In this document: positions 3,839 to 14,317 of the stretch, in pieces
Layout: each line of letters begins with the position of its first letter
Position numbering within the stretch: position 1 is the first letter of the stretch
Source: a virus
Virus genome (UHGV): UHGV-0064133
Length of the DNA: 14,317 nucleotides
Reading direction: 5' to 3' (one strand)
Program-made: the position numbers and the translations under genes
Notes under the pieces: generated by a model
What the model saw: only the letters and a program-made list of their open reading frames with translations
Told to the model about the DNA's origin: nothing
Databases searched by the model: none

Positions 3839-4384
3839 TCACATGACCCCCAACATCGAAGTGACCATCGTCATCAGCGGGCCTACCTGCTCCGGCATGA
3901 GGCGGAACAGCGACGCTATACCCTCGCTTACCTCTTTCAGCTTCTGATGCTCTGGAGCGTCCAGCAGCACGGCCTGTTTAGCCTCGGCACACTCTTTCAT
4001 CGCAGAGGCGATCAGCGACATCGTGTCGTTCTGCGGCGCCAGACGGTTTCGGTACTCCAGCGGCAGGACCGACATGATTGCCGGGGCCAGCTGGCGAATG
4101 TTGTTGGCGGCGTATTCGGTATCGCCATCAATCCATCGAAACACTTTCTGCATCTGGCGGTGCGAGTCAGTCGGGATATCCAGACCGGTTCCGCCGGACG
4201 CCCGCCACTCTTCCACGATCAGCGCGGCGACAAATTCACGGCTTCGGCAATCAGCTGCCCAGGCGCGAACAGCAGCGCGGATCCCATCGATGTTTAACGC
4301 CGCGGAATCAGGCTCCCGGCGATTCTGGTAAATCATCGCCGTTGGCGAAAATTTGTTACCTTGTTGATACGCAAGTGAATGCAT
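3839..4384 (-). CDS. phage regulatory protein, CII(CP76)/YdaT-like
   Basis: 181-aa ORF directly downstream of the cro-like gene; RBS AAGGGAAAG; segment QKVFRWIDGDTEYAANNIRQLAPAIMSVLP resembles what I recall of Rac YdaT and the CP76 family. Assignment is from memory, not a search. Confidence 0.55.
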   Translation of the reverse strand: MHSLAYQQGNKFSPTAMIYQNRREPDSAALNIDGIRAAVRAWAADCRSREFVAALIVEEWRASGGTGLDIPTDSHRQMQKVFRWIDGDTEYAANNIRQLAPAIMSVLPLEYRNRLAPQNDTMSLIASAMKECAEAKQAVLLDAPEHQKLKEVSEGIASLFRLMPEQVGPLMTMVTSMLGVM

Positions 4385-4413
4385 TGCTTTCCCTTTCGTG
4401 GTTAGGGCCGCCG

Positions 4414-4635
4414 TTAGGCGGCAAAGATACCTGGATATAGAACTTCGCGAGGAAGCCCCGTCACTTCTTCGTACTTACGCATTTTTGTTACTGGAAGGCT
4501 GCCACCTCGCTTTTTAAGCATATTGATGGCCTGTGGCGTTACGCCGACCTTTTCAGCAAGCACCTTTTGAGAGCCGCCCACTGCATTAATGGCTTTCTCA
4601 AGCGGGGTGCTTGCGTTGGATTCTTTGTTGATCAT
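4414..4635 (-). CDS. Cro/YdaS-like helix-turn-helix regulator
   Basis: 73-aa ORF divergent from the cI-like gene; HTH-like GSQKVLAEKVGVTPQAINMLKK; RBS GGAG 7 nt upstream of the ATG. Confidence 0.7.
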   Translation of the reverse strand: MINKESNASTPLEKAINAVGGSQKVLAEKVGVTPQAINMLKKRGGSLPVTKMRKYEEVTGLPREVLYPGIFAA

Positions 4636-4752: not shown

Positions 4753-5463
4753 ATGAGTAGCATTTCTGAAAGAATTAAATTTTTACTGGCAAGGGAAGGC
4801 TTGAAGCAGCGGGATTTGGCTGAGGCTTTGTCGACTAGCCCACAGACCGTCAACAACTGGATAAAAAGAGACGCGTTAAGTCGTGAGGCGGCGCAACAAA
4901 TATCTGAAAAATTCGGTTATTCTCTTGACTGGTTATTAAATGGAGAGGGTTCTCCAAAGAAGGATCTGGAGAGCAACATCCCGCCAGAGTCTGAGTGGGG
5001 AGTTGTTGATGCATGGGATAAAGACACCCCGCTTCCTGTTGATGAGGTTGAAGTGCCATTTCTTAAGGATATTGAATTTGCGTGTGGTGATGGTCGAGTT
5101 CAGTGCGAAGACCACAATGGATTTAAGCTGAGATTCTCCAAGGCAACGCTCAGAAGAGTGGGTGCAAATAGTGATGGTTCTGGAGTGCTTTGCTTTCCCG
5201 CTTCTGGTGACAGCATGGAGCCCGTTATTCCTGACGGCGCAACGGTAGCAGTCGATACAGGCAACAAGCGGATTATTGACGGCGAACTCTATGCTATTAA
5301 CCAGGGCGATTTAAAGCGCATAAAGCAGCTTTATCGAAAGCCTGGTGGGAAGCTATTAATACGAAGCATCAATCGCGATTATGACGATGAAGAGGCTGAT
5401 GAGGCAGATGTCGAGATAATCGGTTTTGTGTTCTGGTACTCGGTATTGCGATATCGCCGATAA
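4753..5463 (+). CDS. CI-like prophage repressor, XRE-type HTH plus S24 (LexA-like) autopeptidase domain
   Basis: N-terminal HTH (LKQRDLAEALSTSPQTVNNWIKR); C-terminal S24 motifs GDSMEP (Ser nucleophile) and ELYAINQGDLKRIKQL (Lys). Start set at ATG 4753 (RBS GGAGGG 4 nt upstream) rather than the track start at 4699. Confidence 0.85.
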   Translation: MSSISERIKFLLAREGLKQRDLAEALSTSPQTVNNWIKRDALSREAAQQISEKFGYSLDWLLNGEGSPKKDLESNIPPESEWGVVDAWDKDTPLPVDEVEVPFLKDIEFACGDGRVQCEDHNGFKLRFSKATLRRVGANSDGSGVLCFPASGDSMEPVIPDGATVAVDTGNKRIIDGELYAINQGDLKRIKQLYRKPGGKLLIRSINRDYDDEEADEADVEIIGFVFWYSVLRYRR

Positions 5464-5468
5464 TTTTA

Positions 5469-5581
5469 GTGGCCTGAAGAGACGTTTGGGTGATAAGAGA
5501 ATATCTGATAGTAGGCGTGGTTACTTTGCTCTCGGTTGTTGCGATCGTGCTTATGGTGGCCTGATGAGACGTTTGGGTGAT
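5469..5581. repeat. pair of 26-bp direct repeats (one mismatch) between the repressor gene and the KilA-N gene
   Basis: gtggcctgaagagacgtttgggtgat at 5469-5494 and gtggcctgatgagacgtttgggtgat at 5556-5581, 87 bp start to start. Confidence 0.6.
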
Positions 5582-5612
5582 TATTTTATTTTTCACAGCA
5601 ATAGGATGATTT

Positions 5613-6374
5613 ATGACACAGTTTCAACTTGCATTAATCGCCAGAGAAGTTGATGGAGAAGTCATCCATCTTCGCACCAAAGACGGTTACATCAATGCCA
5701 CCGCAATGTGCAAGTCTGCTGGGAAGCTACTTGCTGACTATACACGACTAAAAACAACGCAAGATTTTTTTGATGAATTATCCCGCGATATGGGGATTCC
5801 CATATCGGAATTAATTCAATCATTTAAAGGCGGAAGAGCAGAGAATCAAGGGACTTGGGTTCATCCAGACATCGCAATTAACTTAGCTCAGTGGCTATCT
5901 CCAAAATTTGCAGTGCAAGTATCGAGATGGGTGCGTGAGTGGATGTCAGGCGAAAGAGCGCCTGCCGAACTCCCTATCCACCTTAAGCGGTATATGACAA
6001 ACCGAGGCAGGGTTCCTCATACGCACTTTTCTATGCTTAATGAACTGACGTTTAACCTGGTTGCGCCACTTGAGCAGGCAGGATATACGCTGCCAGAAAA
6101 AATGGTCCCTGATATTTCAGAAGGTAGGGTTTTCTCGCAATGGCTTCGTGAAAACCGGGGTGTTGAGCCGAAGACGTTCCCAACATATAACCATGAGTAC
6201 CCAGATGGCCGGACATTCCCGGTACGTCTATACCCAAACGAATATCTTGCAGATTTCAAACAACACTTCAACGAAGTGTGGCTGCCTCAGTACGCTCCTA
6301 AATATTTTGCAGAACGAGACCAAAGGGCATTGACGTTGATTGAGAAAATCATGTTGCCTGACCTTGATTCCTAA
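5613..6374 (+). CDS. KilA-N domain protein with uncharacterised C-terminal domain (immunity-region cargo)
   Basis: N-terminal ~110 aa carry the KilA-N/APSES-like signature (YINATAMCKSAGK ... GTWVHPDIAINLAQWLSPKFAVQVSRWV); C-terminal ~140 aa (FPTYNHEYPDGRTFPVRLYPNEYLADFKQHF...) matches nothing I recognise. RBS AGGA; followed by a terminator hairpin. Confidence 0.7.
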   Translation: MTQFQLALIAREVDGEVIHLRTKDGYINATAMCKSAGKLLADYTRLKTTQDFFDELSRDMGIPISELIQSFKGGRAENQGTWVHPDIAINLAQWLSPKFAVQVSRWVREWMSGERAPAELPIHLKRYMTNRGRVPHTHFSMLNELTFNLVAPLEQAGYTLPEKMVPDISEGRVFSQWLRENRGVEPKTFPTYNHEYPDGRTFPVRLYPNEYLADFKQHFNEVWLPQYAPKYFAERDQRALTLIEKIMLPDLDS

Positions 6375-6382
6375 ATGTTATA

Positions 6383-6405
6383 CCCGGCCACCAAGCCGGG
6401 GTTTT
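6383..6405 (+). terminator. putative intrinsic terminator between convergent genes
   Basis: Stem cccggc (6383-6388) / gccggg (6395-6400), loop caccaa, followed by gtttta; lies 9 nt after the KilA-N stop and abuts the 3' end of the convergent small ORF. Confidence 0.5.
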
Positions 6406-6601
6406 ACTGCCCTTTCCGCACTATCTCAGCTGCATCCCTGTTCACACCCTTACCTATCACGTTTCCCGTTTCCTTCCGGTACCGTTCCAGCTTGTCGATG
6501 ATGTTTTGCTGGGTCATAGGTAAATCTGCCAGTGACAACTCCATGACCGCCCGCCCCATGGCGTGAACCATCATGTTCACTCTTTCTTCATCCAAGCCCA
6601 T
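6404..6601 (-). CDS. hypothetical small protein (65 aa) convergent with the KilA-N gene
   Basis: Strong RBS AAGGAG 6 nt upstream of ATG 6601-6599 on the minus strand; hydrophilic sequence MGLDEERVNMMVHAMGRAVMELSLADLPMTQQNIIDKLERYRKETG...; sits just inside the OL-like operator cluster. No family recognised. Confidence 0.5.
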   Translation of the reverse strand: MGLDEERVNMMVHAMGRAVMELSLADLPMTQQNIIDKLERYRKETGNVIGKGVNRDAAEIVRKGQ

Positions 6602-6650
6602 TACCCACTCCTTTTTGATGTTTTTTTCAGCATATCACTTATGCCACCAA

Positions 6651-6742
6651 AAAATAAATCAACATAAAAATCAACAAGAAACGATTAAATCAACAAAATA
6701 AATCCACAAGGTGTTGACCTATAAATCCACATGATGTTTAAT
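6651..6742. promoter_or_regulatory. OL-like operator cluster with rightward PL-like promoter
   Basis: Five direct copies of AAATC[A/C]ACA (6656, 6668, 6687, 6700, 6723); -35 TTGACC (6714-6719), 17-bp spacer, -10 TTTAAT (6737-6742) on the plus strand, with the last operator copy inside the spacer. Confidence 0.55.
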
Positions 6743-6785
6743 TATCCCATCGAAACGAAACATCGACAGCTGAGCGAAGTTAGCC

Positions 6786-8523: not shown

Positions 8524-11433
8524 ATGGAATTTTTCCATCTGATAAAAGCCAGTCAGAAGTCTGGCAAGAAAGATGCAGTGATTTGGTTCACTGCGAAAAG
8601 TGTAGCGCGCGCCAATCTCCAACTCGATGTGGCACTGGAAGAAGCCGGAATTGAAGAAACTGGCCGCGGTAAAGATTATGCCAAACCAATCCGCACCGAT
8701 TTCCCGGTATATGACGACCTGCCGGAAGAAGGCGCAGTGGATTACACCTGGTGCGAACGCTACGAACTGCAGAACGATGACCGCACCTGGCTGCCAAAAG
8801 TCACAGCTGAAAACTCTGACGAGAAAACGGCTCAGACCGTTGATAGTCACATAACTACTGAGTCAACGCTGCCAGAAACCGCTGGCATCACGCTGGACGA
8901 ACACGACGACGACTCAACCCTCTACCCGGTAGTGCAGATGCCGTTTCGTAAGCAACTGCTTTCCCAGTTCACCGCCGACGAACTGCGCCACCACGTAACC
9001 CACGAAGAGTACGAAGCTATCGGCGCGCTGGAGATGGACACTGATAACAGTTACGTCCAGAACTTGCTGTTAGCTGCTGAGAACTGCCCGGAAGTGAAGG
9101 GTTACGACACCAAAGACCTGTGGCGCTACACCGATGCCATTCGCAAAGTGTTCAGCCAGGACAAGCGTCACGAACTCGCGCTGGTACTCCGTTTCACCAG
9201 AATGTGGGCGGCGACTGATTACATTGACCGTGGCATCCTGGCGCGTGAATGGGCCGCCGGTAATCGCATCAGTAGTGTGCAGCGTACTGATTCCGGCACT
9301 AATGCCGACGGCGGTTACGTCACTGACCGTGGACCTGACGCACACCACACACTGGACACTCTCGATTTAGAGATTGCGTGTGCCCTTCTGCCTATGGACT
9401 TCAACCACTTCGAGATCCCGGGCAGCATTCTTCGTCGCGCTAAAGAAATCGTGACCAAAAAAGAAGAACCATGGAAATCATGGAGCAACATCCTGCGCAA
9501 TCAGCCAGGCGTTCTGGGTGTTAACCGCACGGCTATTTTTAACCTGGTACGTATCGCACCGGAAAATATTCATTTAACTCCTGTCGCTCACCTGGAATTT
9601 GTTAACCAGACCATGACAGCCGCGTTCAATTCCGCGGTCGAGTTATTGCCGTTGCATGAGGCTGAACCCGCAGCACAGGAAATTCCCCAACCTGAAGGTA
9701 AGGAGTCTCCGCGCAAATCCTTCTGCACTCACGAAGAGAACCTGCAACGCGTGCGTGAAGAAGGAGCACGCCGCCGCGCAGAGGAAGCGGCAGCACAACC
9801 GCAGAAAGTCGAACAAGAACTGGTTAAAAATGTCGGCAACGGAATATTCGACGTTACGGCTTTGCTGCAGAACTCAGCAACTCATGGCACGAAAAAGGCT
9901 ACGGAGACCACCAGCAATGTGCAGGTTCAAGAAACTGTCAGTGATGAAAAACAAGCTGGTGATGAAGTACAGCCAGGCGAAAGCAGTCTGGAGTCTGGTG
10001 AAGAGTCAGATACCAGCCAGAAGGACGATGTAGACCAGAATACGGATTCTGTCGCCAAAAATAGCGATTCTGTAAGCCAAACCGAACCAGTTGCAGCACA
10101 AACCGAGCCAGAAGCGCAATCTGACGAACCAGCTGTTGTTTATCCCGCTTATTTCGAGCCAGGCCGCTATGAAGGGCTGCCAAACGAGGTTTACCACGCC
10201 GCCAACGGCATCAGCTCAACCCAGGTGAAAGATGCGCGCGTTTCGCTGATGTACTTCAATGCGCGCCACGTAGAGAAAACCATCGTCAAAGAGCGCTCAG
10301 CGGTGCTGGACATGGGCAACTTGGTGCATGCGCTGGCGTTGCAGCCTGAACTACTGGACGCAGAATTCAGCGTTGAACCGGTGATCCCTGAAGGCGCATT
10401 CACAACGGCCGCGACCCTGCGCGCCTTTATCGATGAGCACAATGCCAGCCTGCCGGCGCTGCTGTCTGCCGACGACATCAAGGTGTTACTGGAAGAGTAC
10501 AACGCCACCCTGCCGCCGCAGGTTCCGCTTGGCGCTAACCTGGAAGAAACGGCACAGAACTATATGGCGCTGCCAGCTGACTTCCAGCGTATTGATGGTG
10601 ACCAGAAGCAGACGGCGACGGCAATGAAGGCATGCATTAAAGAGTACAACGCCACCCTGCCGCCGCCGGTTAAAACCAGCGGCAGCCGTGACGCGCTGCT
10701 GGAGCAGTTGGCAATCATCAACCCTGACCTTGTGGCTCAGGAAGCACAGAAACCGGCACCACTGAAAGTGTCCGGTACCAAAGCAGACATGATCCAGGCC
10801 GTGAAGGCAGTCAAACCAGATGCCGTATTTGCCGACGAACTGCTGGATGCCTGGCGCGATAACCCGGAAGGAAAAGTGCTGGTCACCCGCCAGCAGCTGA
10901 GCACCGCGCTGAATATTCAAAAAGCGCTTCTGGCACACCCGACCGCCGGCATGCTGCTGACCCACCCTAGCCGAGCCGTTGAGGTGAGCTACTTTGGTTT
11001 TGACGAGGAGACGGGCTTGGAAGTTCGTGTGCGCCCTGACCTTGAGATCGACCTGGATGGCGTGCGTATAGGTGCAGACCTGAAAACCATCAGCATGTGG
11101 AATGTTAAGCAGGAAAGCCTGCGCGCCAGGCTACACCGGGAAATTATTGAACGTGATTATCACCTGAGCGCGGCTATGTACTGCGAAACCGCAGCGCTGG
11201 ATCAGTTCTTCTGGATTTTCGTCAACAAAGACGAGAACTACCACTGGATCGCCATCATCGAGGCATCCGCTGAACTACTGGAGCTGGGTATGCTCGAGTA
11301 CCGCAAAGCGATGCGCAATATCGCAACCGGATTCGACACAGGTGAATGGCCAGCGCCAATCACTGCTGACTACACCGACGAACTGAACGACTTCGACCTG
11401 CGCCGCCTTGAAGCGCTGCGTACTCAGGCATAA
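8524..11433 (+). CDS. recE: RecE-like exodeoxyribonuclease VIII (large 5'-3' dsDNA exonuclease with C-terminal PD-(D/E)XK domain)
   Basis: N-terminal DAVIWFTAKS...FPVYDDLPEEGAVDYTWCERYEL and DYIDRGILAREWAAGNRISSVQRTDSGTNADGGYVTDRG match what I recall of E. coli RecE; C-terminal RPDLEIDLDGVRIGADLKT fits the PD-(D/E)XK nuclease motif; RBS AAGAGGA. Confidence 0.8.
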   Translation: MEFFHLIKASQKSGKKDAVIWFTAKSVARANLQLDVALEEAGIEETGRGKDYAKPIRTDFPVYDDLPEEGAVDYTWCERYELQNDDRTWLPKVTAENSDEKTAQTVDSHITTESTLPETAGITLDEHDDDSTLYPVVQMPFRKQLLSQFTADELRHHVTHEEYEAIGALEMDTDNSYVQNLLLAAENCPEVKGYDTKDLWRYTDAIRKVFSQDKRHELALVLRFTRMWAATDYIDRGILAREWAAGNRISSVQRTDSGTNADGGYVTDRGPDAHHTLDTLDLEIACALLPMDFNHFEIPGSILRRAKEIVTKKEEPWKSWSNILRNQPGVLGVNRTAIFNLVRIAPENIHLTPVAHLEFVNQTMTAAFNSAVELLPLHEAEPAAQEIPQPEGKESPRKSFCTHEENLQRVREEGARRRAEEAAAQPQKVEQELVKNVGNGIFDVTALLQNSATHGTKKATETTSNVQVQETVSDEKQAGDEVQPGESSLESGEESDTSQKDDVDQNTDSVAKNSDSVSQTEPVAAQTEPEAQSDEPAVVYPAYFEPGRYEGLPNEVYHAANGISSTQVKDARVSLMYFNARHVEKTIVKERSAVLDMGNLVHALALQPELLDAEFSVEPVIPEGAFTTAATLRAFIDEHNASLPALLSADDIKVLLEEYNATLPPQVPLGANLEETAQNYMALPADFQRIDGDQKQTATAMKACIKEYNATLPPPVKTSGSRDALLEQLAIINPDLVAQEAQKPAPLKVSGTKADMIQAVKAVKPDAVFADELLDAWRDNPEGKVLVTRQQLSTALNIQKALLAHPTAGMLLTHPSRAVEVSYFGFDEETGLEVRVRPDLEIDLDGVRIGADLKTISMWNVKQESLRARLHREIIERDYHLSAAMYCETAALDQFFWIFVNKDENYHWIAIIEASAELLELGMLEYRKAMRNIATGFDTGEWPAPITADYTDELNDFDLRRLEALRTQA
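10435..10666 (+). repeat. in-frame internal repeats within the recE-like gene
   Basis: Exact 25-bp repeat gagtacaacgccaccctgccgccgc at 10495-10519 and 10642-10666 (147 bp apart, 49 codons), plus a degenerate copy gagcacaatgccagcctgccggcgc at 10435-10459; peptide-level repeats EHNASLPA / EYNATLPP / EYNATLPP. Confidence 0.65.
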
Positions 11434-11438
11434 GGGGA

Positions 11439-12557
11439 ATGATGATGGAAAACACGAATATCGTAACCGCTGAGCAGCAGACTCCAAACACGATCTCAGC
11501 CAGCAATGCCATTTTCAACGTGCAGGCTTTAACCCAGCTTCAGTCTGTCGCCGGGTTGATGGCACAGGCAGCCGTAACGGTGCCTGAGCACCTCCGCGGC
11601 AATCCGGCAGACTGCATGGCCATCATCATGCAGGCGATGCAGTGGGGTATGAACCCTTACGCCGTGGCGCAAAAGACGCACCTGGTTAACGGTGTCCTGG
11701 GATACGAAGCGCAACTGGTTAATGCGGTGATCTCCAGCTCAAACGCCATCGTTGGCCGCTTTCACTATGAGTACGAGGGCGACTGGTCGAAATGTGCCAG
11801 CAGCCGCGAGATAACCGTTAAAAAGCCTGCGAAAGGTGGCGGGACGTACGACAAGAAAGAAATGGTACGCGGTTGGGAAAGTGCTGATGAACAAGGACTG
11901 TCGGTACGGGTAGGTGCCGTTATTCGCGGTGAAAGTGATATCACCTGGGGAGAGCCTGTTTTCCTCTCCAGCGTAATCACACGTAATTCTCCACTTTGGG
12001 TATCAAACCCGAAACAGCAGATCGCTTATCTGGCACTCAAATACTGGGCGCGCCTGTATTGCCCTGCAGTTGTTCTTGGTGTGTACACCCCTGATGAGAT
12101 TGAACAGCGCACAGAAAAAGAGATCAACCCAACGCCGCAACGCGTTAGCCTGGCTGATATCTCAGGTGACACCGTCACAACCACGCAAAGCGCACAGGAA
12201 TCGTCGGTAAATGTCGACTCTCTTGCCGATGATTTCCGCGAACGCATCGAATCTGCTCAGGACGTGGATAGCGCCAAATCGCTGCGTGCCGACATTGAAA
12301 CGGCGAAAGCTACGCTGGGATCCGCACTATTCACCGAGCTGAAAAACAAAGCCGTAAAGCGTTATTACCTAGTGGATGCACGCAACAAGGTTGAGGAGGC
12401 TATTAAATCCCTGCCCCAGCCCGACGAGCCGCATGCAGCCGAACGGTTCGCTGAAGCCGAGCGCATGCTTGCATCTTCAAAGCGTCACTTAGGCGATGAA
12501 CTGCACGATCAATTCAGCATCACCCTGGCGGATATGAAACCGGAATACGTGGCCTGA
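11439..12557 (+). CDS. RecT/Redbeta(Bet)-family single-strand annealing protein (probable)
   Basis: Directly downstream of the recE-like gene (5-nt gap); segment NPADCMAIIMQAMQWGMNPYAVAQKTHLVNGVLGYEAQ resembles the Redbeta/RecT core (compare lambda Bet DAQFIALLIVANQYGLNPWTKEIYAFP); three consecutive ATGs at the start, true start may be 11442 or 11445. Confidence 0.6.
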   Translation: MMMENTNIVTAEQQTPNTISASNAIFNVQALTQLQSVAGLMAQAAVTVPEHLRGNPADCMAIIMQAMQWGMNPYAVAQKTHLVNGVLGYEAQLVNAVISSSNAIVGRFHYEYEGDWSKCASSREITVKKPAKGGGTYDKKEMVRGWESADEQGLSVRVGAVIRGESDITWGEPVFLSSVITRNSPLWVSNPKQQIAYLALKYWARLYCPAVVLGVYTPDEIEQRTEKEINPTPQRVSLADISGDTVTTTQSAQESSVNVDSLADDFRERIESAQDVDSAKSLRADIETAKATLGSALFTELKNKAVKRYYLVDARNKVEEAIKSLPQPDEPHAAERFAEAERMLASSKRHLGDELHDQFSITLADMKPEYVA

Positions 12558-12879: not shown

Positions 12880-13077
12880 ATGGATGATATTTTGGTAACG
12901 TCAGACCTGACCAGTCGCTACAAAATTTCACGCAAAACCCTTTGGTCATGGCAAAGTGCAGACACAATGCCTCGGGGCTTCGTATGCCCGTTCCCACCCC
13001 CTGACTGGCCCGGCAACCCTAACCGCTGGCGCTCTGAGTCAATCAAAGAGTGGGAGGATAAAAAGAAGATAAATTAA
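12880..13077 (+). CDS. AlpA/excisionase-like small DNA-binding protein
   Basis: [24 protein letters not shown] resembles the AlpA/Xis-type HTH N-terminus; start set at ATG 12880 (RBS GGAGAG upstream) rather than the track start at 12835; adjacent to the integrase. Confidence 0.6.
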
Positions 13078-14267
13078 CTGAAGGGCTCTCCGATGATCTC
13101 TTCAAGATGGCTCTGCCAAACGCGGAGCCAGTGTTTCTGATCATCGATATAGTCATGAAGGTTGTAATGCGCCATAACCCCCACCATCTGATGCCCGAGC
13201 AGCTTTTCAATTACGTGCGGCGGGCAACCTAACTCAGAGAGATTTGTGGCTATCGTCCGCCTCATATCATGAAGCGACCACTCTGCCATACCTGTTCCAT
13301 TCCAAATAGAACGGGCGTAATTGGATGCCACAGGTGAATGAACGGGCGAATCTTTGATCCCGCCATCAATTTTACGTTGTGAAGTCACCAGGTGATTGGT
13401 GTTTATTTTCTTGAGGTGATTTCTGACCAGGTTAACGGCGGCGTCTGAGAGTCCCCTTCTAATATGTACCCGAGTTTTATAACTGCCCGCAGGCACGACC
13501 CACTCATTATCATCCAATCGAAACCATGATCTCTCACTAAGTCGAATCTCAGCCGTACGGCATCCGGTAAGCATAATAAATTTCACCAGGAAAACGGACT
13601 CTATCGACATATGGCTTTTCAACCACTGATAGATTTTGCGCAGATCGTCATCGTCCATCCTGCGAGTTCTCTTTTTAGGCTTTTGCCCGACATCAGATGG
13701 CAGTAATCCCTCGAGTGGGTTTGAGGCGATCACACTTCTGTTAACGCAGAACCTAAACGCCCGTTTGCACAGCGAAAGCATGTAATGAGCCATCACCCTG
13801 CTTTCTATAGAATCGAAGACGTTGATCCAGTGCATTTTCGCTGTGTTATCGACTTTGACATTCTTCATCGGTTCGGCGATATGTTTCTCAAACACCTGGC
13901 GATAGTAATCGACTTTAACTAGCCCGTTAGCGATACAGTGCCTTTCAATCCAGTAATTGAACGCTTCGGCAACGGACATCGCTTCCTGTCGGGTCTGCTT
14001 ATCCAGCTTCACCTGCTCTCGCGGATCCAGTCCCTCAGTTAACCAGTTTCTGAATTGTTGGCGACGCTCTCTTGCCTGGGTGATACTCATTGCAGGATAA
14101 TCACCAACATTGAGTTTTACCGCTTTACCGGCCCAGCGATACCGATAGAAAAATGATATTTTTCCGGCCTGGCTGATTCTGGCGTTGAGCCCGTGCGAAT
14201 CAGAAATAATCTCGATATCATCTCTTTTCTTGCCGAGCGCCTTCCTGAGCTTTGTGTCGGTGATCAT
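13074..14267 (-). CDS. int: tyrosine recombinase / phage integrase (P4-type, N-terminal arm-binding domain)
   Basis: N-terminus [13 protein letters not shown]...[24 protein letters not shown] matches the P4-like integrase arm-binding domain; C-terminal catalytic region HDMRRT...[18 protein letters not shown] with R, H-x-x-R and Y. Start chosen at ATG 14267 by analogy with IntS/IntA N-termini; the track ORF extends to 14312. Confidence 0.9.
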
Positions 14268-14317
14268 TGAATGGGTACACATTTTTGTTTTTGGGTACAC
14301 AAAAGTGTACACAAAGT

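What the first reader, a model, noticed from the sequence alone, without database searches (positions are those of the whole stretch)
5469..5581. Two near-identical 26-bp direct repeats between the repressor gene and the KilA-N gene
gtggcctgaagagacgtttgggtgat and gtggcctgatgagacgtttgggtgat, 87 bp apart, lie in the 150-bp gap after the cI stop. They are not palindromic and do not resemble the operator 9-mers. Candidate roles are binding sites for the KilA-N domain (a DNA-binding fold), a duplicated regulatory element for the cargo gene, or footprints of a small insertion.
Basis: seen in the sequence. Interest (0 to 1): 0.4.

Follow-up and report, generated by a model that had tools for sequence, protein, structure and literature searches.

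The report
Leftover repressor-gene ends flanking a tiny gene
The two repeats are stranded copies of the last 26 bases of a lambda-type repressor gene; lambdoid phages swap modules at them, and here they also bracket an unannotated 24-codon gene for a small hydrophobic peptide that phage phi80 and common lab E. coli strains also carry.

Summary
The copies lie at 5469-5494 and 5556-5581, match at 25 of 26 bases, and start 87 bp apart, so 61 bp separate them.

They are not KilA-N sites. Each copy is the 3' end of a lambda-family cI gene (WP[E/D]ETFG-stop) and matches lambda cI itself at 25/26. Here both copies are non-coding "ghost tails" behind a phi80-type cI. Phi80 has both copies too, but a different cargo gene (40A).

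The 113-bp unit (26+61+26) is nearly invariant in about 97 copies. Among 58 classified copies it follows 9 classes of repressor-gene end and precedes 24 classes of downstream sequence. In this window the homology switch from phi80-like sequence to a BstA-family KilA-N module lies inside copy 2.

The unit holds a 24-codon ORF (5490-5564, MIREYLIVGVVTLLSVVAIVLMVA). Its start codon is in copy 1 and its stop codon in copy 2. Six of its 7 polymorphic sites are at codon position 3. A 68%-identical paralogue keeps the length, frame and hydrophobicity. No record annotates it.

Best reading: the repeats are recombination linkers and intercistronic junctions around a likely small membrane-peptide gene in the cI operon. 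Translation and function are not tested, and the ribosome-binding stretch of this window's allele is weak.

The parts
4753..5463 (+). phi80-type cI repressor gene (236 codons plus stop, counted from the ATG at 4753; the ORF listing starts the ORF at an upstream in-frame ATG, 4699)
   Evidence: Pfam Peptidase_S24, Phage_CI_repr and HTH_3. Window 5380-5580 is 98% identical to phi80 across the end of the annotated cI and beyond. Whole-gene identity to phi80 cI is only 88.8%.
5469..5494 (+). Copy 1: non-coding 'ghost' of the last 26 nt of a lambda-type cI gene (tgg cct gaa gag acg ttt ggg tga = WPEETFG-stop). It carries the ribosome-binding stretch and the GTG start (5490-5492) of the small ORF, which overlaps the ghost stop codon as GTGA.
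   Evidence: 25/26 identical to the real 3' end of lambda cI (cI CDS coordinates). In five IMG/VR loci shown (L010, L014, L016, L017, L023) the same copy is the true end of a lambda-type cI.
5490..5564 (+). Unannotated small ORF: GTG start, 24 codons, TGA stop. Peptide MIREYLIVGVVTLLSVVAIVLMVA, with one predicted membrane-spanning helix.
   Evidence: About 97 near-identical copies. Seven polymorphic sites, six at codon position 3. The paralogue ORF B in L015 is 68% identical in DNA, has the same length with no indel, and shows synonymous CGA/AGA and TTG/CTT changes; simulation gives P of about 0.001. Nothing is annotated here in the 60 of 64 E. coli genomes listed. No Pfam, NCBIfam or PHROG family matches.
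5495..5555 (+). The 61-bp unique segment between the copies, which is the body of the small ORF
   Evidence: Not significantly similar to lambda sequence upstream or downstream of the cI tail. No terminal inverted repeats. No stable RNA fold, z = 0.26.
5556..5581 (+). Copy 2: a second ghost cI tail (WPDETFG-stop in the cI frame). It supplies the last two codons and the stop (GTG GCC TGA, 5556-5564) of the small ORF and is the mosaic junction between phi80-like sequence and the BstA/KilA-N module.
   Evidence: phi80 and KL53 align with the window up to copy 2. PhiR5_2 and the E. coli H5 prophage align from copy 2 onward. The 3' half of the right copy varies together with the downstream class.
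5582..5612 (+). Leader of the KilA-N/BstA gene. It always travels with that gene. By analogy with BTP1, the self-immunity element aba would span about 5584-5646.
   Evidence: The same leader follows the 26-mer in every KilA-N context. The aba definition (29 bp upstream plus the first 34 bp of bstA) comes from PMC8585504. Analogy only; not tested.
5613..6374 (+). BstA-family abortive-infection protein with an N-terminal KilA-N domain (the cargo gene)
   Evidence: phrog_6287 'BstA abortive infection system', E = 2e-82 over the full length. PADLOC BstA, E = 1.6e-20. Pfam KilA-N, E = 8e-27.
6383..6400 (+). Terminator-like GC-rich hairpin ending the inferred cI - small ORF - bstA transcription unit
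   Evidence: No promoter-like or terminator-like site on either strand between 5300 and 5750.

Best explanation
The two 26-mers are two copies of the last 26 nt of a lambda-family cI gene, stranded as non-coding 'ghost tails' behind a phi80-type repressor gene. With the 61 bp between them they form a 113-bp unit that does two things.

(1) The tails are short homology linkers at which lambdoid phages exchange repressor alleles on the left and cargo genes on the right. In this window the homology switch that joins a phi80-type cI plus small ORF to a BstA-type KilA-N defence gene lies inside copy 2.

(2) The unit encodes a 24-codon ORF (5490-5564) for a single-helix hydrophobic peptide. Copy 1 provides the ribosome-binding stretch and the GTG start, which overlaps the ghost stop codon. 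Copy 2 provides the last two codons and the stop. The tail thus works as a compact stop / Shine-Dalgarno / start junction between cistrons.

No promoter or terminator lies in the gap, so cI, the small ORF and bstA are most likely read as one transcript from PRM in the lysogen, as cI-rexA-rexB is in lambda.

Shown here: the identity with the cI tail, the distribution across contexts, the homology breakpoints, and the conservation pattern of the ORF. Inferred: translation, membrane insertion, any function of the peptide, and the enzymology of the exchanges (probably the phage's RecE/RecT-type recombinase acting on about 26 bp of homology).
For: Identity. The lambda cI 3' end is GTGGCCTGAAGAGACGTTTGGCTGAT, 25/26 to copy 1. 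The 26-mer occurs in 263 phage records. In a spread sample of 60 rows, roughly half lie in annotated cI genes and roughly half lie where nothing is annotated, for example 933W, BP-4795 and many Stx phages. Variants keep the cI reading frame: Gly GGG/GGA/GGT/GGC, stop TGA/TAG/TAA, residues E/D and T/L/V.

Junction. phi80 matches window 5380-5580 at 98% and then diverges. PhiR5_2, the H5 prophage and dozens of E. coli prophages match only from 5556 onward.

Cassette. 58 classified copies show 9 upstream classes, 24 downstream classes and 33 combinations, while the 75-nt ORF stays essentially invariant. Two Enterobacter species and 38 metagenome contigs also carry it. Other cargo in related loci (the 933W DUF3024 gene; the 32-aa ORF X in L033) also ends in or just before a tail-like repeat.

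Coding. Six of 7 polymorphic sites are at codon position 3 and four are synonymous. ORF B against ORF C: 24 differences, distributed 8/4/12 over codon positions 1/2/3, no indel, 5 synonymous codon changes. P(intact ORF, identity and hydrophobicity at least as observed) is about 0.001 in 100,000 simulations. ORF B has its own ATG and a GAGGG Shine-Dalgarno sequence. Half of the left copies (29/58) read GAGGTG, a perfect Shine-Dalgarno match 5 nt before the GTG and 8 nt before an ATG.

Operon. No promoter or terminator in 5300-5750; terminator-like hairpin at 6383-6400.

Plausibility of 26-bp exchange. The minimal efficient pairing segment is 23-27 bp for Red-beta and 31-34 bp for RecA (PMC3945230). 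The window encodes RecE and RecT.
Against: There is no direct evidence of translation.

In this window's allele the start is GTG, the second codon is ATA rather than ATG, and the predicted pairing with the anti-Shine-Dalgarno sequence is weak (-3.7 kcal/mol, against -6.9 for the GAGGTG alleles). cI ends 26 nt upstream of the GTG, so the direct stop/start overlap seen behind lambda-type cI genes is lost here.

Only one diverged paralogue (ORF B, one contig) was found, despite degenerate scans of IMG/VR, GTDB species genomes and metagenomes.

The near-identity of all other copies could reflect recent spread rather than selection. The last 84 nt of cI are equally conserved between the window and phi80, while the rest of cI is only about 89% identical.

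The antisense frame (window ORF 5369-5596, minus strand) shares the same wobble positions, so the position-3 bias alone does not identify the strand. That frame, however, carries a stop in ORF B and ends in the variable flanks.

The origin of the duplication itself is not resolved. The 61-bp spacer is not detectably derived from lambda sequence.
Confidence: 0.7

Rival explanations
1. Pure relics. The repeats are ghost cI tails left by past recombination, as above, but the 24-codon ORF is a chance open frame that is not translated or has no function. The 113-bp unit is uniform only because it spread recently by hitch-hiking between essential neighbours.
For: Very low diversity: 11 alleles in about 97 copies. 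Weak ribosome-binding stretch and GTG-only start in the window's allele. Never annotated. No known family. Only one diverged paralogue. The adjacent end of cI is equally conserved between the window and phi80.
Against: Six of 7 polymorphisms are at codon position 3 and none breaks the frame. ORF B is 32% diverged in DNA yet keeps its length, frame, stop position and hydrophobic character, and has its own ATG and Shine-Dalgarno sequence. Half of the left copies carry a perfect GAGGTG Shine-Dalgarno match at ideal spacing. Other unannotated small transmembrane ORFs occupy the same position behind repressor genes in related phages.
Confidence: 0.22
2. The repeats are protein-binding sites: iterons for the KilA-N/BstA protein, extra CI operators, or part of the anti-BstA (aba) element that regulates or immunises the cargo gene.
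For: The repeats lie directly upstream of a gene whose product has a DNA-binding KilA-N fold. BstA systems do have a DNA element (aba) at the 5' end of the gene.
Against: The same pair occurs in phi80 with gene 40A and before 24 downstream classes. The KilA-N module occurs with a single copy that is coding cI sequence. There is no dyad symmetry and no similarity to phi80 operators beyond shuffled controls. BTP1 aba is a different sequence; in L007 and L025 it lies 15 nt downstream of the right copy, outside it. Variation follows the cI codon frame.
Confidence: 0.03
3. The repeats are the target-site duplication or terminal repeats of a miniature mobile element, or they mark a small structured RNA or terminator between cI and the cargo gene.
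For: Direct repeats flanking a short unique segment that is present or absent among related phages.
Against: The 61-bp segment has no terminal inverted repeats. The unit is always found at the same place, a cI tail behind a repressor gene, and never elsewhere. 26 bp is far longer than typical target-site duplications (own knowledge). The RNA fold is no better than shuffles, z = 0.26. No Rfam family. No promoter-like or terminator-like site.
Confidence: 0.03

Closest known systems
3' end of the phage lambda cI gene (NC_001416 37227-37252, ...SQWPEETFG-stop)
   Same: 25/26 nt identical to copy 1. Same orientation relative to the repressor gene. Variants elsewhere follow the cI codon frame.
   Different: Here the sequence is not part of any repressor ORF. 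It lies after the stop codon of an unrelated phi80-type cI, it is present twice, and it is read in another frame by the small ORF.
Mosaic module boundaries ('linker' or boundary sequences) of lambdoid phages, and relaxed homologous recombination by Rad52-like phage recombinases (De Paepe et al. 2014, PMC3945230; the modular-evolution idea of Susskind and Botstein and later HK97/HK620 genome papers is cited from memory)
   Same: A short conserved sequence sits exactly at the homology breakpoints between otherwise unrelated modules. Its length (26 bp) equals the reported minimal pairing segment of Red-beta, 23-27 bp.
   Different: The linker is a fossil of a coding sequence (a repressor C-terminus). 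It is duplicated within one genome and also serves as a stop/SD/start junction. No experiment here shows recombination at it.
Cargo ('moron') genes downstream of cI and expressed in lysogens: rexAB of lambda, bstA of Salmonella prophage BTP1 (Owen et al. 2021, PMC8585504)
   Same: Same locus and orientation. No own promoter detected, so probably read from PRM. The window's cargo is itself a BstA homologue.
   Different: The small ORF has 24 codons, matches no family, and is an extra cistron between cI and the known cargo.
Small hydrophobic bacterial peptides: type I toxins such as Ibs, Ldr and TisB, and small inner-membrane proteins (own knowledge)
   Same: Size (24 aa) and composition: a short polar N-terminus (MIRE) followed by about 20 hydrophobic residues.
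   Different: No antisense promoter or RNA detected. No sequence similarity to any NCBIfam or Pfam small-protein model. Toxicity not tested.
Integron-like cassette arrays
   Same: Promoterless short cassettes downstream of a fixed promoter, separated by copies of one repeat. Related loci hold up to three small ORFs in series, two of them bounded by full copies of the 26-mer (L015, L033).
   Different: No integrase and no attC-type structured sites. The repeats are plain homology and exchange is presumably by general or phage homologous recombination. This is an analogy, not membership.

Membership tests
Ghost (non-coding) copy of a lambda-type cI 3' terminus | Sequence identity to the last codons plus stop of lambda-family cI | tested here: met
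   25/26 (copy 1) and 24/26 (copy 2) to lambda cI. Identical or near-identical to the real ends of lambda-type cI genes in L002, L010, L014, L016, L017 and L023.
Ghost (non-coding) copy of a lambda-type cI 3' terminus | Lies outside the resident repressor ORF, directly downstream and in the same orientation | tested here: met
   The phi80-type cI stops at 5461-5463 (TAA). Copy 1 starts at 5469 and copy 2 at 5556.
Ghost (non-coding) copy of a lambda-type cI 3' terminus | Variation among copies follows the cI codon frame, i.e. it was inherited from coding copies | tested here: met
   Gly GGG/GGA/GGT/GGC; stop TGA/TAG/TAA at a fixed position; GAA/GAT; ACG/CTG/GTG.
Mosaic recombination junction / linker of lambdoid phages | Homology with different relatives switches at the element | tested here: met
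   phi80 and KL53 match up to copy 2; PhiR5_2 and H5 match from copy 2 onward. 33 upstream/downstream combinations among 58 copies.
Mosaic recombination junction / linker of lambdoid phages | Exchange at the element is catalysed by homologous recombination functions | not testable with these tools
   Plausibility only: a 26-bp element against a Red-beta minimal pairing segment of 23-27 bp, and RecE/RecT genes at 8524-12557.
Small protein-coding gene (single-helix membrane peptide) | Intact ORF of constant length in all copies, with substitutions concentrated at codon position 3 | tested here: met
   About 97 copies, none interrupted. Six of 7 polymorphic sites at position 3. Caveat: the antisense frame shares these wobble positions.
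Small protein-coding gene (single-helix membrane peptide) | A diverged homologue keeps the frame, length and physicochemical character | tested here: met
   ORF B in L015: 68% nt identity, 13/23 aa identity, no indel, synonymous CGA/AGA and TTG/CTT; simulation P about 0.001. This rests on a single paralogue.
Small protein-coding gene (single-helix membrane peptide) | Start codon with a Shine-Dalgarno sequence at suitable spacing | tested here: inconclusive
   Window allele: GTG start and weak pairing (-3.7 kcal/mol). 29/58 other copies have GAGGTG (-6.9 kcal/mol). 34/58 copies have ATG as the second codon.
Small protein-coding gene (single-helix membrane peptide) | Evidence of translation or of the peptide itself | not testable with these tools
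   No ribosome-profiling or proteomic data available here. The sequence string was not found in the paper library.
Binding sites for KilA-N/BstA or CI (operators, iterons, aba) | Co-occurrence with the protein's gene; similarity to known sites; symmetry | tested here: not met
   Present in phi80 without a KilA-N gene, and before 24 downstream classes. No operator similarity or dyad symmetry. BTP1 aba is a different sequence and lies outside the repeat.
Target-site duplication of a transposable or miniature element | Terminal inverted repeats; insertion at varied sites | tested here: not met
   No inverted repeats at the ends of the 61-bp segment. Always at a cI tail behind a repressor gene.
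Structured RNA / intrinsic terminator / known Rfam family | Stable or conserved secondary structure, terminator hairpin with T-run, or Rfam match | tested here: not met
   z = 0.26 against shuffles. No terminator-like site. Only a sub-threshold chance Rfam hit outside the repeats.
BstA abortive-infection system (the cargo gene, not the repeats) | KilA-N N-terminal domain plus BstA C-terminal region; located downstream of the prophage repressor | tested here: met
   phrog_6287 E = 2e-82 over the full length; PADLOC BstA E = 1.6e-20; Pfam KilA-N. Location as described for bstA in PMC8585504. The aba element of this homologue is not identified.

The most novel reading that the evidence does not exclude
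Behind the repressor gene, lambdoid phages keep a small array of promoterless micro-genes for single-helix membrane peptides (ORF C here; ORF A, B and X in relatives) and larger defence genes. The array is separated by copies of a fossil repressor-gene tail. That tail serves both as the homology handle by which cassettes are swapped between phages (integron-like, but using general or phage recombination) and as a ready-made stop/SD/start junction that plugs each incoming gene into the lysogen-expressed cI operon. Under this reading the 24-aa peptide is made in every phi80 lysogen, including DH5alpha, DH10B and TOP10, and has a lysogen-specific role such as exclusion of superinfecting phage or modulation of a host membrane protein.
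Probability: 0.3. Interest if true: 0.65.

Novelty: new variant of a known kind. Interest (0 to 1): 0.45.

Why it matters
It turns an unexplained repeat into a readable piece of phage genome history. The repeat shows where and by what homology immunity and defence modules are exchanged, and it shows that several repressor families' gene ends accumulate as fossils behind the resident repressor.

It also flags a conserved, never-annotated 24-codon gene candidate in the lysogenic operon of phi80. Phi80 is a classic phage whose prophage sits in widely used cloning strains, so the peptide's existence and effect can be tested cheaply.

If the tail linker really works as a plug-in junction for cargo, it would explain how defence genes such as bstA are shuffled so freely at this locus.

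Tried and rejected
(1) Tested whether the 61-bp spacer derives from lambda cI sequence just upstream of the tail (tandem duplication) or from the lambda cI-rexA spacer. Local alignment scores were no better than shuffles, so the origin of the spacer remains open.

(2) tblastn with the ORF B peptide against all phage records recovered only phi80, at E = 2; the query is too short to be informative.

(3) blastn with the ORF A/B region of L015 gave nothing in E. coli genomes. In phages it found only ORF A homologues in Klebsiella phages.

(4) A flank-anchored scan that left the interior free found only the same ORF at a fixed length. No other inserts were seen between two close tail copies.

(5) Degenerate codon-level scans: one was mistyped and returned nothing. 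The corrected pattern on GTDB genomes and metagenomes gave many more identical copies, two chance hits, and no new diverged paralogue.

(6) The search for homologous proteins refuses queries under 40 aa.

(7) Pfam, NCBIfam and PHROGs hold no family for any of the small peptides.

(8) Literature searches for the peptide string and the 26-mer string, and for descriptions of repressor-gene remnants in lambdoid phages, found nothing relevant in the held library. Older subscription papers on the phi80 immunity region and on wild lambda-immunity phages are not searchable here, so prior notice of the cI-tail homology cannot be excluded.

(9) Rejected as explanations: operator or iteron, terminator or promoter, structured RNA, transposon footprint.

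(10) Comparing cassette conservation with cI divergence as a selection test was abandoned. The window and phi80 switch from about 85% to 98% identity some 84 nt before the cI stop, so mosaicism confounds the test.
Full report
OBSERVATION

The window contains GTGGCCTGAAGAGACGTTTGGGTGAT at 5469-5494 and GTGGCCTGATGAGACGTTTGGGTGAT at 5556-5581, both on the + strand. They match at 25/26. There is no third copy even with 3 mismatches allowed, and none of 200 dinucleotide-preserving shuffles produced a match. The start-to-start spacing is 87 bp, so 61 bp separate the copies. The copies lie in the 149-bp gap between the stop of the repressor gene (5463) and the ATG of the KilA-N gene (5613). They have no dyad symmetry and resemble the six annotated phi80 operators no more than shuffled 26-mers do.

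WHAT THE 26-MER IS

Read as tgg cct gaW gag acg ttt ggg tga, the repeat encodes WP(E/D)ETFG-stop. The real 3' end of the phage lambda cI gene is GTGGCCTGAAGAGACGTTTGGCTGAT, which is 25/26 identical to copy 1. It covers the last 25 nt of the annotated lambda cI CDS plus one base. In phage PhiR5_2 and in at least six IMG/VR contigs, including L010, L014, L016, L017 and L023, the same 26-mer is the true end of a lambda-type cI gene.

In this window the repressor is phi80-type (Pfam S24 peptidase plus CI HTH). It ends with ...RYRR-TAA five bases before copy 1. Both copies are therefore non-coding ghosts of another repressor family's gene end.

A 30-nt query finds the 26-mer in 263 phage records. 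In a spread sample of 60 rows, about half lie within annotated cI genes and about half lie where nothing is annotated, for example 933W, BP-4795 and many Stx phages. Variants of the ghost copies still follow the cI codon frame: Gly GGG/GGA/GGT/GGC, stop TGA/TAG/TAA at the same position, GAA/GAT, ACG/CTG/GTG. This is what one expects if the copies are repeatedly inherited from coding cI tails by recombination.

THE REPEATS ARE MOSAIC JUNCTIONS, NOT KilA-N ELEMENTS

Phage phi80 matches window 5380-5580 at 98%. It has both repeats and the 61-bp spacer, but after copy 2 it continues into gene 40A, not a KilA-N gene. Conversely, PhiR5_2, the prophage of E. coli H5 and dozens of other E. coli prophages match the window only from 5556, the first base of copy 2, onward into the KilA-N gene. 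The six-way alignment shows the switch inside copy 2.

I classified 58 copies of the unit from IMG/VR and reference records. They fall into 9 classes of upstream sequence: phi80-type cI, true lambda-type cI, an XRE-type repressor ending YRKHG-stop, 933W-like cI and others. They fall into 24 classes of downstream sequence, giving 33 combinations. The 3' half of the right copy varies together with what lies downstream, and the left copy varies together with what lies upstream.

In 12 loci the right copy is followed immediately by a ghost of yet another repressor family's tail (ETKLRLV-stop). That tail is a real gene end in L033 and L067. The zone behind the repressor gene is thus a palimpsest of repressor-gene ends that mark exchange points.

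A 26-bp homology is at the reported minimal efficient pairing length for Red-beta (23-27 bp; RecA needs 31-34 bp; De Paepe et al. 2014, PMC3945230). The window itself encodes RecE and RecT. That recombination actually occurs at the 26-mer is inferred from the breakpoints. It was not shown experimentally.

WHAT LIES BETWEEN THE REPEATS

The 113-bp unit (26+61+26) is almost invariant wherever it occurs. It reads as an ORF at 5490-5564: GTG ATA AGA GAA TAT CTG ATA GTA GGC GTG GTT ACT TTG CTC TCG GTT GTT GCG ATC GTG CTT ATG GTG GCC TGA. This encodes MIREYLIVGVVTLLSVVAIVLMVA: 24 residues, with a short polar head followed by about 20 hydrophobic residues.

The GTG start lies in copy 1 and overlaps the ghost stop codon (GTGA). 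Behind true lambda-type cI genes this is a classical stop/start overlap. The last two codons and the stop, GTG GCC TGA, are the first nine bases of copy 2.

Evidence that this is a gene:

- Across about 97 copies from IMG/VR, GTDB genomes of two Enterobacter species, metagenomes, phi80 and E. coli, there are 11 alleles and none is interrupted. Seven sites vary: 2.3, 5.3, 18.3, 20.3, 21.1, 22.3 and 24.3 (written as codon.position). Six are at codon position 3, four are synonymous, and the one first-position change is Leu to Ile.
- Contig L015 carries a tandem paralogue, ORF B (MMRDYLIVGTVTVLTATVIFLIVA), immediately upstream. It has its own ATG and a GAGGG Shine-Dalgarno sequence. It is only 68% identical in DNA, with differences distributed 8/4/12 over codon positions 1/2/3. 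It has the same length with no indel, and synonymous CGA/AGA, TTG/CTT, GGA/GGC, GTA/GTT and CTT/CTC changes. In 100,000 simulations of equal random divergence, about 0.1% kept an intact ORF with at least the observed identity and hydrophobicity.
- Half of the left copies (29/58) read GAGGTG, a perfect Shine-Dalgarno match. It lies 5 nt before the GTG and 8 nt before an ATG second codon, which 21 of those 29 copies carry (34/58 copies overall).
- Other unannotated small single-helix ORFs occupy the same position behind repressor genes. ORF A (39 aa) occurs in L015 and in two Klebsiella phages. ORF X (32 aa) occurs in L033, and in a Klebsiella phage record it is mislabelled 'CI transcriptional regulator'.

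Caveats:

- Translation is untested.
- The window's own allele has the weakest initiation region, GAGACG with GTG ATA and -3.7 kcal/mol predicted pairing. Here cI stops 26 nt before the GTG.
- Only one diverged paralogue is known.
- The minus-strand frame (window ORF 5369-5596) shares the wobble positions, although it carries a stop in ORF B and ends in the variable flanks.
- Uniformity could reflect recent spread. The last 84 nt of cI are equally conserved between the window and phi80, while the rest of cI is about 89% identical.

Nothing is annotated at this position in the 60 of 64 E. coli genomes listed that carry the unit. Most are phi80-bearing laboratory strains such as DH5alpha, DH10B, TOP10 and JM83. 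Nothing is annotated there in the phi80 records either. No Pfam, NCBIfam or PHROG family matches.

WHY THE TAIL IS REPEATED

The tail contains a TGA in the frame used by the small ORF (gcc TGA), a Shine-Dalgarno-like GAG(G/A)(T/C)G, and a GTG(ATG) start. It is therefore a compact stop/SD/start junction.

Other cargo in related loci ends in or just before a tail-like repeat as well. ORF X in L033 ends GGT GGT TGA TGAGACGTTTGGGTGA. The DUF3024 gene of 933W lies between a full ghost tail and a partial copy reading TGAAGAGACGTTTGGATGA. L015 shows cI, ORF A, ORF B, tail, ORF C, tail, terminator.

Two non-exclusive reasons for the duplication fit the data:

- History. A crossover between the GTGGCCTGA at the end of a small ORF and the same 9-mer in another phage's cI tail would create the 26-61-26 structure in one step. 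After that, the 26-bp repeats allow gain, loss and replacement of cassettes.
- Function. Each tail couples the next cistron to the lysogenic operon.

I could not decide between these. The 61-bp spacer shows no significant similarity to lambda sequence on either side of the tail, so a simple tandem duplication of the cI end is not supported.

TRANSCRIPTIONAL CONTEXT

No sigma-70-like promoter or intrinsic terminator is predicted on either strand between 5300 and 5750. The RNA of the gap folds no better than shuffles, z = 0.26, and no Rfam family matches. A GC-rich hairpin with a T-run follows the KilA-N gene at 6383-6400. The simplest reading is one transcript from PRM covering cI, the small ORF and the cargo gene, as for cI-rexA-rexB in lambda (own knowledge) and for bstA in BTP1 (PMC8585504).

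THE CARGO GENE

The 253-aa KilA-N protein is a BstA-family abortive-infection protein (phrog_6287 E = 2e-82 over its full length; PADLOC BstA E = 1.6e-20; Pfam KilA-N). In BTP1 the self-immunity element aba is 29 bp upstream plus the first 34 bp of bstA. By analogy, this homologue's aba would be about 5584-5646, just to the right of copy 2 and outside it. In L007 and L025 the unit sits 15 nt upstream of a BTP1-type aba sequence. This again shows that the 26-mers are not part of aba.

COMPARISON WITH WHAT IS KNOWN, AND NOVELTY

Mosaic junctions with short conserved sequences, lysogen-expressed cargo behind cI, and small hydrophobic bacterial peptides are all known kinds.

Three things appear new relative to the annotations and the searchable literature:

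- the linker is a fossil repressor C-terminus repeated within one genome;
- it doubles as an intercistronic junction;
- in phi80 and relatives it brackets a conserved, unannotated 24-codon ORF.

Older subscription papers on the phi80 immunity region could not be searched, so prior notice of the cI-tail homology cannot be excluded. I rate this a new variant of a known kind, of moderate interest.

VERDICT

The repeats are real and far from chance, but they are not KilA-N or regulatory sites. They are ghost ends of a lambda-type cI gene that mark, and probably mediate, module exchange. They also frame a likely small membrane-peptide gene.

Confidence in the ghost-tail and junction part is about 0.95. 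Confidence in the small gene is about 0.65-0.7. Confidence in the explanation as a whole is 0.7.

Noticed in passing
window 5613-6374 (+), and about 5584-5646: The 'KilA-N gene' is a full-length BstA-family abortive-infection gene (phrog_6287 E = 2e-82; PADLOC BstA). By analogy with BTP1, its self-immunity DNA element aba should span 29 bp upstream plus the first 34 bp of the gene, starting 3 nt after copy 2. The aba of this homologue has not been identified.
   Followed up: partly
window 6404-6601 (-): A 65-aa ORF on the opposite strand lies between the bstA terminator hairpin (6383-6400) and the OL/PL operator cluster (about 6640-6750). It matches phrog_3975 (unknown function, E = 7e-35) and no Pfam family.
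   Followed up: partly
L015 (reverse strand 6318-6437 and 6449-6523); L062 1483-1602; L061 1483-1602: Unannotated small single-helix ORFs lie directly behind repressor genes. ORF A (39 aa, MDDLIYPILLTLLIVGLVGVFMRLDKFFFKRRSDRDVPE) has homologues in Klebsiella phages, where one record annotates the opposite strand as a hypothetical protein. ORF B (24 aa) is the only diverged paralogue of the window's small ORF.
   Followed up: partly
L033 4108-4206; L061 1259-1378: A third small transmembrane ORF family (ORF X, MRIGIAFPVIVFIVAVAFMAWFVVGGYATPGG) follows the small-ORF unit in L033 and ends in another tail-like repeat. Its Klebsiella phage homologue is annotated as 'CI transcriptional regulator', which looks like a mislabel.
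   Followed up: no
L064 (phage 933W) 1502-1527 and 1873-1898: In 933W a ghost lambda-cI tail follows the unrelated 933W cI. The next gene (a DUF3024 protein) is followed by a second, partial copy of the tail (TGAAGAGACGTTTGGATGA) and then a terminator-like sequence. A larger cargo gene is therefore also bracketed by tail repeats.
   Followed up: partly
L030, L031, L032, L037, L039, L040, L045, L046, L049-L051 (downstream of the right copy); L033 and L067 repressor ends: Directly after the right 26-mer, 12 loci carry a ghost of a second repressor family's 3' end (GAG ACG AAG CTG CGG CTG GTT TAG = ETKLRLV-stop). This is the real gene end of the repressor in L033 and L067. Fossil tails of different repressor families are stacked one after another.
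   Followed up: partly
L003, L005, L012, L013, L018, L020 (after the right copy); L032, L033, L039, L053, L067 (before the left copy); L064 and L065 1480-1500: The lambda cI-rexA spacer motif (ggcaaggtgttctggtcggcgcatagctg) recurs after the right tail copy in some loci and before the left tail copy in others. In 933W and BP-4795 only its end (catagctggtaa) precedes the single ghost tail. This suggests repeated unequal exchanges in this zone.
   Followed up: no
window 4753-5463 against phi80 cI (L001 2374-3084): The window's cI is only 88.8% identical to phi80 cI (71/255 third positions differ), but identity jumps to 98% for the last 84 nt and the small-ORF unit. A further recombination breakpoint therefore lies inside cI near 5380. 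E. coli KL53 is 100% identical over the last 300 nt of cI.
   Followed up: partly
window 5369-5596 (-): A 75-codon antisense ORF runs through the whole unit and shares wobble positions with the small ORF. It is interrupted in the ORF B paralogue and its ends lie in context-specific flanks, so it is probably spurious. The position-3 bias alone cannot exclude it.
   Followed up: partly
window 3839-4635 (-), 8524-12557 (+), 13074-14312 (-): Context genes: YdaS-like Cro and YdaT-like cII-position proteins, RecE (Exonuc_VIII plus PDDEXK) and RecT, and a tyrosine integrase. Overall the window is a mosaic closest to HK225 and mEp237 (46-61% of the query covered, at 96-97% identity) and partly to phi80. 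No complete E. coli genome in the collection holds the phi80-cI / small-ORF / KilA-N combination, but IMG/VR contigs L008, L021 and L024 do.
   Followed up: partly
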